Shown: piece after piece, positions 44,601 to 49,721 of the stretch | Layout: each line of letters opens with the position of its first letter | Numbering within the stretch: the first letter of the stretch is position 1 | Source: the human T2T-CHM13v2.0 reference genome, Homo sapiens | Assembly (NCBI RefSeq): GCF_009914755.1 | Contig: NC_060927.1 | Length of the DNA: 64,000 nucleotides | Reading direction: 5' to 3' (one strand) | The notes under the pieces: model-generated | Told to the model about the DNA's origin: nothing | The model's input: the letters and a program-made list of their open reading frames with translations, nothing else | The model's database searches: none | Program-made: the position numbers and the translations under genes

Positions 44601-45267
44601 CTGGGAATAAGACAGGCAGCCAGTCAGCCTCCGTGGAATTCCCAGGCAGCTTGCAGGAGCCACAGCGGGCCCTGGGCTCTGAGAAGGTCTGAGGCCCAGC
44701 AGGCGCAGGGGCCTAAACTATTTATCGGCAAGGAGGAAGGAAGGTTCATCCAGAACGTGGATCCCCTTCCTCCTTCTCACACCTCACAAGGTCACAGCGA
44801 GGTGGCTGGGAGGAGAGCCAGGGACTTTTCACTGAGGTGTGTGGGAGACAGCTTGGCAGCCCTTGGACTCTGAAGGGAGGAGGTGGTGGGAAGGAGGGCA
44901 GCTTCGGAACTTCCCAGTTCCTGCTTGATGACCTGTGTGTAAAGTATTCCTGTTTAGGTCTCAAAATCCTCTCAGAAACATAATTCTCAGAAAATCCAGG
45001 CACCCAATCCAGCTCCCTGGCCTTCCCTGAAATCTGAAGTCAAAGGGGCTGAGCCAGCCTGCCCTGGGTGTCAGGCCTCTGAGCCCAAGCTAAGCCATCA
45101 TATCCCCTGTGACCTGCACCTACACATCCAGATGGCAGGTTCCTGCCTTAACTGATGACATTCCACCACAAAAGAAGTGAAAATGAAAAGGCACACAGCG
45201 CTGGCACAGGCGCTGGGAGGCGCACAGGAGACCTCAGGCCCAGGCTCCACTCCCCAGCTGTGAAAGG

Positions 45268-45402
45268 ACCGCTGGCTGGACCCCCAAGCTAGCCCACCAG
45301 GCCTCCATAGAGCTGCTCAGCATGGCCGTGGCCAGTACCAAGAGACGGTGGGAGACGGGTGAGGTACAGGCTCAGTCTGCGGCCAAGACTCTGTCCTGCA
45401 AG
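45268..45402 (+). pseudogene. LSP1: LSP1-derived exon
   Basis: Translates to TAGWTPKLAHQASIELLSMAVASTKRRWETGEVQAQSAAKTLSCK, versus LSP1 TAGRTPKLARQASIELPSMAVASTKSRWETGEVQAQSAAKTPSCK as recalled. The symbol names the parent gene. Confidence 0.92.
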
Positions 45403-46600
<1,198 letters not shown>

Positions 46601-47197
46601 ATCTGGCACTTGGCACTCTGCAGCCACGGGGATGAGGCTGAGCACTGGTTCTCGGCCTCATGGCGCCGCTGGGGCCACAGCCTGACTTCACCTCCCCTTC
46701 ACCCAAGTCGTGTGATGGGCACGTGTGAGGAGGGGCAATCGGGGTTCCCAAGGCTGCTGCCTGCATGTCACTCCGTGGCCACTAGGATAGGGCTGAGGAG
46801 CTACCAGGGGATGAGCACATTGTGGCCATCAGGATGGGGCTGAGAGTCTATCTTTATCCTTATGCACCTGCCCAGCCGACTTCCCGACAGCCACTACTGC
46901 AGCGTCCTGTCAGGGAGTCCTTGCTGTTGGGGCTGGGATGGGGAGGGCATGGAGAATCAGGGATGGTCTGGCCATTGCTGCTGGTGCCTGATGTGCAGGT
47001 GGCAGCTGCACCTAGGGCATGGGCTGGTAGTTCTTCTCTTTTGGATGGTTTCCAGGTGGCCCATTGTGCTGTGACCAAGCCAGAGGGTCCACTCCACCTT
47101 AGCCCACACTAGGAGTCCAGGGGCTACAGGCGTGGGTACTGTGTGGCCAACCAGAAGGGGCTCAGCAGCCAGTTCGGCTTTCCTGCCTTTGCAGGGC

Positions 47198-47908
47198 TTT
47201 TTTAAATTTTTTTTTTATTTAACATTTTCTAAAAATACCTACGAACAAAAAGATGCATATCAAACACATTAGGAAGGTTGCACATGGGAAGACGGGGAAT
47301 AGAAATGGGGGTGAGAATGAAAGAAAAATAAATGAGACAGGAACTTTGTATGGATCAATGATAATAACTCAATCCTCTATGTCTTTGACAAGAAGGAGAA
47401 GGAAGAGGAAGAAAAAGAAAGTGGGATAAAGGATCAGAAAGGGAGGAAAATAGAAAAACTTAGAGTATAACTCCAGGGTAGACCTGTTTTGTTGTTGCTG
47501 GGTTGGTTGGTTGGTTGCTTTGTTGTAATTTTCATATGTTTCGCCATGTTGGCCAGGCTGGTCTCGAACCCCTAGCCTCAAGTGATCAACCTGCCTCGGC
47601 CTCCCAGAGTGCTGGGATTACAGGCATGAGCCACCACGTCCAGCCCCCACACTGCGTCTGGCATCCGTGGTAGACCTCCCAGACAGAGCAGCCGGGCAGA
47701 GGCGCTCCTCAGTTCCCAGATGGGGTGGCCAGGCAGAGGCGCTCCTCACATCCCAGACGATGGGCGGCCGGGCAGAGGCTCTCCTCACTGCCCAGACGAT
47801 GGGCGGCCGGGCAGAGGCGCTCCTCACTTCCCAGACGGGGTGGCCGGGCAGAAGGGCTCCTCACTTTCCAGACGGCGAGGCCGGGCAGAGGCTCTCCTCA
47901 CATCCCAG
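47198..47908 (-). mobile_element. 5'-truncated VNTR-composite retroelement, LAVA-like (VNTR-U1-Alu fragment-U2-L1-like-polyA)
   Basis: Minus strand: six SVA-type VNTR units (47676-47908), GTCTACCACGGATGCCAGACGCAGTGTGG, sense Alu left arm (47538-47645), pyrimidine-rich unique segment, AATAAA/poly(A) (T-run 47198-47220 on +). Confidence 0.75.
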
Positions 47909-48242
47909 ATCCACAAAAGAAGTGAAAATAGCCTTAACTGATGACATTCCACCATTGTGATTTGTTTCTGCCCCACCCTAACTGATGTACTTTGTAATCT
48001 CCAACACCCTTAAGAAAGTTCTTTGTAATCTCCCTCACCCTTGAGAAGGTTCTTTGTAATTTATAATTCTCCCCACCCTTGAGAATGTACTTTGTGAGAT
48101 CCACCTCCTGCCCACAAAACATTGCTCCTAACTCCACCGCCTATCCCAAAACCTTTAAGAATTAATGATAATCCCATCACCCTTTGCTCTCTTTTCGGAC
48201 TCGGCCTGCCTGCACCCAGGTGAAATAAACAGCCTTGTTGCT
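47909..48242 (+). mobile_element. LTR7B-type HERV-H LTR fragment ending at its poly(A) site
   Basis: atccacaaaagaagtgaaaatagcc, repeated ctttgtaat...cacccttgagaa units, cacccaggtgaaataaacagccttgttgct, then poly(A); U5 absent. Confidence 0.88.
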
Positions 48243-49721
48243 GGAAAAAAAAAAAAAAAAAAGAAAGAAAAGTGAAAATGGCCTGTTCCTGCCTTAACTG
48301 ATGACATTGTCTTGTGAAATTCCTTCTCCTGGCTCATCCTGGCTCAAAACCTCCCACACTGAGTACCTTGTGACCCCCACTCTGCCCACCAGAGAACAAC
48401 CCCCCTTTGACTGTAATTTTCCTTTACCTATGCAAATCCTATAAAACGGCCCCACGCCTGTCTCCCTTCACTGACTCTCTTTTCAGACTCAGCCCGCCTG
48501 CACCCAGGTGAAATAAACAGCCATGTTGCTCACACAAAGCCTGTTTGGTGGCCTCTTCACATGGACGCGCATGAAAGTGGGGTCCTCATGCCCACCAGTC
48601 CAGAGTGCTCTCTAGAGGAAGGCTACAGACACTTCCTGGCTCACTCATCCAGATGTTAGCTGTCTTGGTGAAACTCCTTTTTTCACCCTTGAAAACCACT
48701 GGAAGAATGGCCAAGAACCCAGCTATCCTGAGTAAGTTCACTTAGAGAAGCAAAATCTAACATGAGTGGCAAAATGGACATTGGCACCAGGAGTGTGGGT
48801 CAGAATCCTGCCCCTTGGAACTACATCATCGCTTGTACAGTGTACCCCCCAGGCACCAAGAGACCAGGCCGAGACCCTTCAGTGTCCCTGGGCCTCTGGT
48901 CAGTGTCTTCCCACCTGGCACACAGGCAGGCCCTCATAAAACAATGAGTACTGAAAGTTCCTGCCTTCTTGGTGGGTTCTCAGCACCCCGTCGTGAGCCA
49001 CACCCTGACCCAGGGAAATCAGGATCACCCTGATGCTACCCGTAGGCTAGTGCCCCTTCTGAAGTGCCCCAGGCTGGCACCCCTATACTTAGATCTCTTC
49101 AGCCTCCTCATGAAAACCTTCTTGTCCATCACCCCAGCAGTCCCCACACTGTGCAAAATGAGCAGCTGACCACACGTCAAATCAATTTTCAGAGTTTGCC
49201 TTTGGTTTAATATTGACGGCTCATCCAAAAGATCTTGTCACTATAGCTAGATGAAAAAAATGACAAGGCTCTGGAGAAGCAGAGCCACAACATGGAAGAT
49301 ACCTGGGTCCCAGGTTCATGAGGAGAGGAGCTGCCTGCTCCACAGACTGTCACATGAGTGGGAATGAAACTTTTTCTGCGTTTAGACCATTACCTTTCTT
49401 CAGTCTGTCCCATAGTCTACCCCCGCTAAACAGAACTTGACCTCCACCAGACCGTTTACATCAAGACCTGTATGTGCAGTGCAGTGGCCTGAGCCTCCAA
49501 TCCATGCCCCACCTATCCAACCGGCCTTGCCATATTCTTACTCTGAGAGTGGTATTCTGGGGACAGAAGCTCAGTGCATAGAATTGACTAATGCCAGATC
49601 CTTCAGGCGCTTTGCACTTTGAAGTCTATCTGTCCTAGCACATTCCAAGTACAAAGAAGACACTTCAACAGTACAACCTGGCCTACACTCAGTTCAATTC
49701 CTTCTTCAAAAACCTAGGCCC

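What the first reader, a model, noticed from the sequence alone, without database searches (positions are those of the whole stretch)
47198..47908. LAVA-like retroelement in apparently human DNA
Seen, on the minus strand: six SVA-type VNTR units join at GTCTGGGAG|GTCTACCACGG to a short unique piece. Then come a sense Alu left arm, a CAAC-repeat/pyrimidine-rich segment, an AT-rich end, AATAAA and poly(A). There is no SINE-R, so it is not a canonical SVA. Known: LAVA (VNTR-U1-AluSz-U2-L1ME5, 3' part derived from an HSD17B3 intron) is described as gibbon-specific, and this module order and the U1/U2 text match my recollection of it. Inference: if the DNA is great-ape, a proto-LAVA existed before the gibbon split and survived by hitch-hiking in duplications and in this retrocopy. 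RepeatMasker with a human library would split it into SVA, Alu and L1 pieces and hide it.
Basis: partly seen in the sequence, partly recalled or inferred. Interest (0 to 1): 0.85.

Follow-up and report, generated by a model that had tools for sequence, protein, structure and literature searches.

The report
Human fossil of a LAVA-like retroelement
Human DNA holds a dead, truncated relative of the gibbon LAVA jumping gene, preserved only because it sat inside a host transcript that was itself copied back into the genome several times.

Summary
On the minus strand, 47198-47908 reads: six SVA-type VNTR units, the junction GTCTGGGAG|GTCTACC, about 26 unique bases, a sense Alu left arm, a unique/L1-derived stretch, and an A-rich tail holding AATAAA. 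Bases 47221-47675 align collinearly (91%) with one tail-less, VNTR-less locus. I mapped that locus to HSD17B3 intron 2, the published source of the LAVA 3' part.

It is not a free-standing insertion. It lies antisense inside a 3.1-kb plus-strand processed retrocopy (about 45186-48271, annotated LSP1P2) of an LSP1-STRN fusion transcript that ends at the poly(A) signal of an LTR. T2T-CHM13 has six copies. Four are independent insertions with target-site duplications (chr3, 5, 9, 13); the chr9 copy was later triplicated.

Gibbon LAVA primers printed in Lupan 2015 match the start of U1. They also show that gibbon LAVA runs at least 16 bases beyond the point where the human copies become poly(A).

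Carbone 2012 already reported six human copies of U1-AluS-U2-L1ME5, without mentioning a VNTR. Clock estimates put the capture near or before the gibbon split but cannot settle it. A proto-LAVA shared with gibbons and an independent splice capture both remain open. No LAVA consensus or other ape genome was available.

The parts
47677..47909 (-). SVA-type VNTR, 6 units (37/39 bases) plus a terminal TGGGAG. It is 5'-truncated and joined to the LTR fragment through 3 bases of microhomology (TCT, 47907-47909).
   Evidence: TRF; units. The best genome match is a canonical SVA, 91% over 233 bases. Microhomology was read.
47650..47675 (-). U1: unique bases from HSD17B3 intron 2, starting GTCTACC directly after the VNTR's GAG. 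The source locus reads TATAG|GTCTACC.
   Evidence: Alignment of the 6 copies with the intron locus. Gibbon LAVA_E and LAVA_F U1 primers match here with 4-5 mismatches in 26, one of them engineered.
47536..47649 (-). Sense Alu left arm (AluSz in the LAVA literature). All six copies share a 7-base deletion relative to the intron locus.
   Evidence: The only part of the query with many other genomic hits; the deletion is seen.
47221..47535 (-). U2 (CAAC repeat and pyrimidine-rich unique stretch) followed by the L1ME5-derived AT-rich stretch. The internal border was not determined here.
   Evidence: Collinear with the intron locus to ...AAAATGTT. Module names and lengths are from Meyer 2016.
47198..47220 (-). 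A-rich tail with AATAAA at 47219-47214. It begins at least 16 bases before the end of gibbon LAVA's 3' part.
45186..48271 (+). Host unit: a processed retrocopy (LSP1P2) of an LSP1-STRN fusion transcript. Its start is uncertain by about 5 bases.
   Evidence: Shared by six loci whose flanks otherwise differ. Introns are removed. Poly(A) and target-site duplications are present.
45187..45402 (+). Two spliced LSP1-type exons (45187-45267 and 45267-45402).
   Evidence: They match chr1/chr2 LSP1 duplicates, where the two exons lie 4.4 kb apart, and chr11 at 94%. The hub table annotates 45268-45402 as LSP1P2.
45401..45482 (+). STRN exon, 100% identical to chr2:36912676-36912757, where it is flanked by AG and GTAAGT.
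   Evidence: The chr5 and chr13 copies carry further STRN exons (Pfam Striatin, E = 2.4e-16).
45483..47197 (+). GC-rich segment 'D', paralogous to chr2:88773463-88775193 (90%). The homology stops exactly at the tail of the LAVA-like piece.
47909..48244 (+). 3' part of an LTR (the name LTR12/HERV9 is recalled, not tested), lacking about 85 bases of its 5' end. It carries AATAAA about 20 bases before the tail.
   Evidence: 1923 first-look candidates. The closest outside the family is a complete solo LTR at chrX:151956269-151956608, 96%.
48245..48271 (+). Poly(A) tail of the host retrocopy.
   Evidence: TRF. The flanks of the copies diverge immediately after it.
45175..45185 (+). Target-site duplication AAGTGAAAATG of the host retrocopy. 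It is repeated directly after the tail, about 48278-48288. The target is another LTR of the same family.

Best explanation
The piece is a dead, 5'-truncated VNTR-composite retrotransposon fragment. Its 3' module is a cryptic terminal exon of HSD17B3 intron 2.

Proposed history:
1. An SVA-type VNTR RNA was spliced from a VNTR donor (GAG|GTGAGG register) to the intronic acceptor TATAG|GTCTACC, then polyadenylated. This is inferred from the junction.
2. L1 copied the chimeric RNA into an LTR, antisense and truncated in the VNTR. This is inferred from the tail and the 3-base microhomology.
3. A rearrangement, probably within its tail, placed segment D next to it. This is inferred.
4. The locus became the last exon of an LSP1-STRN fusion gene whose transcripts ended at the LTR's poly(A) signal. 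That locus is not found in CHM13.
5. Spliced transcripts were retrotransposed at least four times, to chr3, chr5, chr9 and chr13. This is shown.
6. The chr9 copy was triplicated by duplication. This is shown.

The window holds the chr3 retrocopy. The element does nothing now.

On its relation to LAVA: it has the same source locus and the same 5' border, but a shorter 3' end. I lean slightly towards one capture in the common hominoid ancestor (about 0.45) over an independent capture in the great-ape line (about 0.40).
For: - Collinearity. The 503-base query finds 7 long matches among the 54 listed. Six carry both the VNTR end and the tail (92-100% identity). One, chr9:108435613-108436071, covers only query 24-480, at 91%.
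- Source locus. That locus lies on the gene strand between HSD17B3 exon 2 (108469870-108469790) and exon 3 (108426314-108426237). Exon 1 is named by 73 database hits. This agrees with Meyer 2016.
- Junction. It has GT-AG logic. VNTR splice donors are shown experimentally in Damert 2020 (passages).
- Canonical SVA. It breaks its VNTR in the same register.
- Host retrocopy. Homology among the six loci is limited to window 45189-48278. Three splice isoforms are present (Pfam Striatin). Target-site duplications are AAGTGAAAATG (chr3), AAAAAATTTAGCAC (chr13), TAGACAAAAG (all three chr9 copies, in alpha satellite) and a weak GAAAAGG (chr5).
- LAVA primers.
- Prior print. Carbone 2012 aligned six human U1-AluS-U2-L1ME5 copies with gibbon LAVA.
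- Dating. Non-CpG K2P distances are 0.043-0.073 between the intron locus and the copies (n about 430), and 0.022-0.041 among independent retrocopies (n about 2130).
Against: - The LAVA-like piece has no target-site duplication.
- Its tail abuts GC-rich sequence (...GCAGGGC) that does not look like an L1 endonuclease site.
- No empty site was found. The chr2:88.77 Mb paralogue of D continues with unrelated sequence, not with the LTR.
- The source gene is not in CHM13, so steps 2-4 are reconstruction.
- No canonical poly(A) hexamer lies upstream of the tail.
- There is no direct alignment to a LAVA consensus. Only 26 + 28 primer bases of gibbon sequence were available.
Confidence: 0.8

Rival explanations
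1. Independent (parallel) capture. After the gibbon split, a great-ape VNTR transcript was spliced to the same cryptic acceptor in HSD17B3 intron 2. It was polyadenylated at a different point and inserted once. It shares with LAVA only the source and the splice sites.
For: - The 3' end differs from gibbon LAVA by at least 16 bases.
- In the 26 U1 bases, LAVA_E and LAVA_F carry two changes that the human copies and the intron locus lack. No derived base is shared.
- Only one insertion event is visible in human, since all six copies share one VNTR/LTR junction.
- Parallel exon capture by SVA splicing is documented: MAST2 in human and STK40 in chimpanzee (Damert 2018, passages).
- The dating error (about 0.01 on 0.045) allows a date after the split.
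Against: - It needs the same rare event twice.
- No VNTR lies in the 60 kb examined around the human locus, which includes 50 kb upstream and the gene start.
- Meyer 2016 reports no suitable upstream VNTR in gibbon.
- The per-lineage depth of the capture from the tree (about 0.033-0.037) exceeds my recalled per-lineage value for the gibbon split (about 0.022-0.024).
Confidence: 0.4
2. DNA-level origin. A VNTR element inserted just upstream of U1 at the intron locus (Meyer's model A, 'allele B'), or at a duplicated copy of it. The human pieces descend from that DNA, not from a spliced RNA.
For: Meyer 2016 proposes this model for LAVA. The human piece lacks its own target-site duplication.
Against: - Homology to the intron stops exactly at an AG and exactly at an A-rich tail.
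- No intron flank is carried on either side in any of the six copies.
- The VNTR ends in the donor register GAG|GT.
Confidence: 0.08
3. Chance juxtaposition of separate SVA, Alu and L1 fragments, or an assembly artefact.
For: None found. The region is duplication-rich.
Against: The same composite is present at six loci on four chromosomes, at 92-94% identity to the window copy. It is collinear with one intron locus at E = 6.7e-184.
Confidence: 0.01

Closest known systems
LAVA (L1-Alu-VNTR-Alu), gibbon VNTR-composite retrotransposon
   Same: - An SVA-type VNTR is joined directly to U1-AluSz-U2-L1ME5 from HSD17B3 intron 2.
- U1 starts at GTCTACC.
- The tail contains AATAAA.
- There is no SINE-R.
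   Different: - It ends at least 16 bases earlier than LAVA_E and LAVA_F.
- It is 5'-truncated, so no CT-hexamer or Alu-like region is seen.
- It stems from a single insertion event, has no target-site duplication of its own, and is found in human.
- Subfamily placement was not testable.
SVA (SINE-R-VNTR-Alu)
   Same: Same VNTR unit type. The best VNTR match is a canonical SVA at 91%. The VNTR breaks in the same register, after TGGGA(A/G) and before GT.
   Different: The 3' module is the HSD17B3 intron piece, not SINE-R.
PVA and FVA of gibbons; SVA_F1 (MAST2) and pt_SVA_D6 (STK40)
   Same: Host sequence acquired by a VNTR composite through splicing (Lupan 2015 abstract; Damert 2018 passages).
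   Different: Different captured genes. The MAST2 and STK40 captures are at the 5' end.
Processed chimeric retrocopies (LSP1P family)
   Same: The carrier unit has removed introns, a poly(A) tail, target-site duplications and several independent insertions.
   Different: It is the vehicle, not the element. The LAVA-like piece is a passenger in antisense orientation.

Membership tests
LAVA | VNTR joined directly to U1 at the border of the HSD17B3 intron-2 sequence | tested here: met
   GTCTGGGAG|GTCTACC in 6 of 6 copies. The intron locus reads TATAG|GTCTACC. Gibbon U1 primers align at this start.
LAVA | U1-AluSz-U2-L1ME5 collinear with the progenitor locus | tested here: met
   459 bases at 91% identity, one block. 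The locus lies in intron 2 on the gene strand.
LAVA | Same 3' terminus as gibbon LAVA | tested here: not met
   The reverse complement of primer L876_Nhe matches the intron locus over its 28 element bases with one indel. The six human copies share only the first 12 bases and then become A-rich tail.
LAVA | 5' CT-rich hexamers and Alu-like region | tested here: inconclusive
   Absent in 6 of 6 copies, but all are cut in the VNTR at one shared junction with an LTR. The original 5' end is unknown.
LAVA | Own target-site duplications (L1-mediated insertion) | tested here: not met
   The sequence after the tail (GCCCTGCAAAGG...) is not repeated before the VNTR. Only a tail and a 3-base microhomology are present.
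LAVA | Diagnostic bases of LAVA subfamilies A-F | not testable with these tools
   No consensus is held. Only 54 primer bases of gibbon sequence are in print in the texts I could read.
SVA (canonical) | SINE-R module 3' of the VNTR | tested here: not met
   The VNTR is followed by U1. Compare the canonical SVA L053.
SVA2 | VNTR followed by the SVA2-specific unique 3' sequence; units mainly 40 and 39 bases | not tested
   No SVA2 reference was available. Units here are 37 and 39 bases, against 40 and 39 reported for SVA2 (Lupan 2015).
Processed retrocopy (carrier unit) | Introns removed, poly(A) tail, target-site duplication | tested here: met

The most novel reading that the evidence does not exclude
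The capture of the HSD17B3 intron-2 module by a VNTR element happened once, in the common ancestor of gibbons and great apes or earlier. On this reading LAVA's 3' half was not invented in gibbons. Gibbons amplified it. The great-ape line kept a single, 3'-shortened insertion that survives only as a passenger in LSP1-STRN retrocopies. The human copies would then be an outgroup for reconstructing the first LAVA.
Probability: 0.45. Interest if true: 0.65.

Novelty: new member of a known kind. Interest (0 to 1): 0.5.

Why it matters
LAVA is presented as a gibbon invention, and its 3' module as a sequence that sat immobile at one locus in all other primates (Meyer 2016). The human genome shows that this module was spliced to a VNTR and retrotransposed outside the LAVA family as we know it.

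That gives the splice-capture model a second witness. The acceptor AG that Meyer's model B has to postulate by mutation is present in the human intron if U1 is taken to start at GTCTACC.

It also turns the question 'when and how did LAVA arise?' into a simple test. The test is whether gibbon LAVA shares the derived states of the human copies, and whether the retrocopies have orthologues in gibbons.

For annotation, it explains an SVA/Alu/L1 mosaic in LSP1P2 and its relatives. There is no sign of present function.

Tried and rejected
- LAVA sequence from paper supplements.
- Ianc 2014 is not held. Hara 2012 was not sought by id. Either may already describe the human VNTR-linked copies.
- Empty site: none found. 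The chr2:88.77 Mb paralogue of D diverges at the tail, and the LTR does not follow.
- Cis donor: no VNTR in chr9:108425700-108485699. The best hits were 13 bases or fewer.
- chrX:151.956 Mb looked like a possible source of the LTR part (96% identity). It is an ordinary complete solo LTR flanked by Alus, with no VNTR.
- Pfam on the two short HSD17B3 exon ORFs was uninformative: adh_short E = 0.27 for one, nothing for the other. This was replaced.
- Typing the VNTR units with the Lupan 2015 letter code failed, because the unit sequences are only in figures.
- Literature searches for a human LAVA-like element found none. Terms used: LAVA+gibbon+HSD17B3; SVA2+VNTR+retrotransposon; LAVA+L1ME5+AluSz; LAVA+PVA+FVA+splicing; the Ianc title phrase; LAVA+siamang+SVA+composite; non-canonical SVAs+splicing; LSP1+STRN+pericentromeric+duplication.
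- Hartley 2021 has no LAVA oligonucleotides in its main text.

Full report
**What is there**

There are six VNTR units of 37 or 39 bases plus a terminal TGGGAG. TRF gives 47677-47909, period 37, 6.2 copies, score 304; the units are listed.

The junction GTCTGGGAG|GTCTACC falls at 47676/47675. It is followed by about 26 unique bases and a sense Alu left arm (about 47536-47649). Then come a CAAC repeat and a pyrimidine-rich stretch, an AT-rich stretch ending ...AAAATGTT at 47221, and a 23-base A-rich tail holding AATAAA.

No SINE-R follows the VNTR. The best genomic match of the VNTR is a canonical SVA (91% over 233 bases). In that SVA the VNTR breaks in the same register...GTCTGGGAA|GT, before a different 3' module. 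The names SINE-R and SVA for that locus rest on my reading of its layout.

**The source of the 3' part**

I searched the window's own genome, which is human (3.117 Gb, 24 contigs), with 47198-47700. This gave 7 long matches among the 54 listed (2260 first-look candidates, 40 scored).

Six carry both the end of the VNTR and the tail:
- chr3, the window copy
- chr13:24.228 Mb
- chr5:29.034 Mb
- chr9:42.409 Mb
- chr9:47.593 Mb
- chr9:77.277 Mb

These are 92-94% identical to the window copy.

The seventh is chr9:108435613-108436071. It covers only query 24-480, at 91%. It has neither VNTR nor tail, and its flanks are unrelated.

An ORF 38 kb upstream on the same strand is exon 1 of 17-beta-hydroxysteroid dehydrogenase 3, named by 73 database hits. 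A macaque HSD17B3 protein places exons 1, 2 and 3 at 108473813-661, 108469870-790 and 108426314-237. The locus therefore lies in intron 2, in gene orientation.

This is the 'LAVA 3' progenitor locus' of Meyer 2016 (hg19 chr9:99026506-99026986, HSD17B3 intron 2). That paper gives U1 as 28 bases, U2 as 103, L1ME5 as 211, and the whole 3' part as 473 (passages and Discussion).

**The junction is a splice junction**

The intron locus reads ...AAAATATAG|GTCTACC. The copies read ...GTCTGGGAG|GTCTACC. A VNTR unit normally continues GAG|GTGAGG, so the join is donor GAG|GT to acceptor AG|G.

Damert 2020 shows experimentally that SVA VNTRs hold working splice donors (passages).

Meyer 2016 states that the two bases before U1 at the locus are AT, and postulates a T-to-G mutation to create an acceptor. 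In the human sequence AT precedes AGGTCTACC. If U1 is taken to start two bases later, the AG is already there. This is my inference from text and sequence. I could not see their figure.

**Comparison with real gibbon LAVA**

No LAVA consensus was available to any tool. The Methods of Lupan 2015 print three useful oligonucleotides. Two upstream primers sit at the start of the 3' part of LAVA_E and LAVA_F. One downstream primer sits at its end.

Aligned, the U1 primers sit exactly at GTCTACC in all seven human sequences. They show 4-5 mismatches in 26 bases, one of which is the engineered RsaI base. The paper also cuts LAVA at an AccI site at the VNTR/3' border, which fits GTCTAC. The 5' border is therefore the same.

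The reverse complement of the 3' primer matches the intron locus over its 28 element bases, with one indel. The six human copies share only the first 12 bases (TTAGAAAATGTT) and then turn into tail. Gibbon LAVA therefore extends at least 16 bases further than the human copies. My 459-base alignment against Meyer's 481-base interval agrees with this.

A shortened copy cannot be LAVA's ancestor. It could be an offshoot, through earlier cleavage or a small deletion, or a separate capture.

**It is a passenger, not a free-standing insertion**

The six loci share only window 45189-48278. Beyond that their flanks differ, except that the three chr9 copies share an alpha-satellite flank.

On the plus strand this unit consists of:
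- two LSP1-type exons. In chr1/chr2 LSP1 duplicates they lie 4.4 kb apart, and the second matches chr11 at 94%.
- an 82-base STRN exon, flanked by AG and GTAAGT at chr2:36.91 Mb.
- a GC-rich segment D, paralogous to chr2:88.77 Mb at 90%.
- the LAVA-like piece in antisense.
- the 3' 336 bases of an LTR with AATAAA.
- a tail of 27 bases.

The chr13 and chr5 copies hold extra STRN exons, and chr5 an extra LSP1 exon, in frame. Pfam finds Striatin at E = 2.4e-16 and Caldesmon at 0.0052, the latter below its cut-off. So there are at least three splice isoforms.

Each independent copy has a tail and a target-site duplication:
- chr3: AAGTGAAAATG, inside another LTR of the same family
- chr13: AAAAAATTTAGCAC
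- chr9: TAGACAAAAG
- chr5: a weak GAAAAGG

The unit is therefore a processed retrocopy of an LSP1-STRN fusion transcript. It was made at least four times, and the chr9 copy was later triplicated. The hub table's LSP1P2 (45268-45402) is one exon of it.

No intron-bearing source gene with the LAVA-like piece exists in this assembly.

**How the piece got into the source gene is only partly readable**

All six copies share one VNTR/LTR junction with 3 bases of microhomology (TCT). This fits the 5' end of a truncated L1-mediated insertion into the LTR.

On the other side, the tail abuts D exactly where the chr2:88.77 Mb paralogue continues with unrelated sequence. The first 85 bases or so of the LTR are missing, there is no target-site duplication, and the site is GC-rich. 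I take this as a later breakpoint within the tail. That is a guess.

**Dating**

Non-CpG K2P distances:
- intron locus versus copies: 0.043-0.048 for chr5, chr13 and chr9:47.6; up to 0.073 for the window copy (n about 430, standard error about 0.01)
- independent retrocopies versus each other: 0.022-0.041 (n about 2130)
- the two youngest chr9 duplicates: 0.007

In the ML tree, the branch from the intron locus to the node of the copies is 0.044, and the terminal branches are about 0.02-0.05. That gives a per-lineage depth of roughly 0.033-0.037 for the capture and 0.02-0.03 for the retrocopies.

I set these against recalled genome-wide per-lineage values of about 0.022-0.024 for the gibbon split and about 0.032 for the macaque split. 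These values come from no call. On that scale the capture falls at or before the gibbon split and the oldest retrocopy near it. The difference is only about 1.5 standard errors, and these are duplicated, partly pericentromeric sequences.

**What was known**

[quoted passage not shown] The authors aligned these with 18 gibbon LAVAs and used them as a copy-number standard (sections read). The main text mentions neither a VNTR nor a tail on them. T2T-CHM13 has seven, and the extra one is presumably a chr9 pericentromeric copy.

Meyer 2016 later treats the module as unique and immobile outside gibbons.

My eight searches found no paper describing a human VNTR-linked copy. I cannot say it is unpublished.

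**Verdict**

The identification as LAVA-like is right for the module order, the source locus and the 5' border. It is wrong for the 3' end and untestable for the 5' end.

The hitch-hiking idea is right and can be made precise. 'Proto-LAVA before the gibbon split' remains an open reading at about 45%, against about 40% for an independent capture at the same cryptic exon.

Noticed in passing
window 45186-48271; L031/L036 (chr13), L033/L037 (chr5), L032/L038, L034, L035 (chr9): A family of processed retrocopies of an LSP1-STRN-'D' fusion transcript with at least three splice isoforms. The chr5 copy keeps an in-frame LSP1-striatin reading frame over about 170 codons. No intron-bearing source gene was found in this assembly.
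   Followed up: partly
window 45401-45482: The STRN exon in the window copy is 100% identical (82 of 82 bases) to the STRN gene at chr2:36912676-36912757. The rest of the unit differs by 6-10% between copies. This may be chance, conservation or gene conversion.
   Followed up: no
window 47221-47675: In the window copy the LAVA-like 3' part is about twice as diverged from its paralogues as segment D of the same copy: non-CpG 0.048-0.064 against 0.019-0.033.
   Followed up: no
L007 / chr9:108436072 region: The human HSD17B3 intron-2 locus reads TATAG|GTCTACC. The acceptor AG that Meyer 2016's trans-splicing model obtains by a postulated T-to-G mutation is therefore present if U1 is taken to start at GTCTACC rather than two bases earlier.
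   Followed up: partly
window about 44990-45185 and 48272-48570: The retrocopy sits inside another LTR of the same family as the one it carries. The name LTR12/HERV9 is recalled, not tested.
   Followed up: partly
L051, chrX:151956187-151956720: A complete solo LTR 96% identical to the LTR fragment in the unit, much closer than the other genomic copies (89-92%). It is flanked by Alus and carries no VNTR.
   Followed up: yes
window 45483-47197; L039, L040: The GC- and CpG-rich segment D has paralogues at chr2:88.77 Mb, at chr2:96.3, 97.6 and 98.0 Mb (these only up to window 46777) and on chrY:27.2 Mb. It holds internal repeats around GGTGGCAGCTGCAGC.
   Followed up: no
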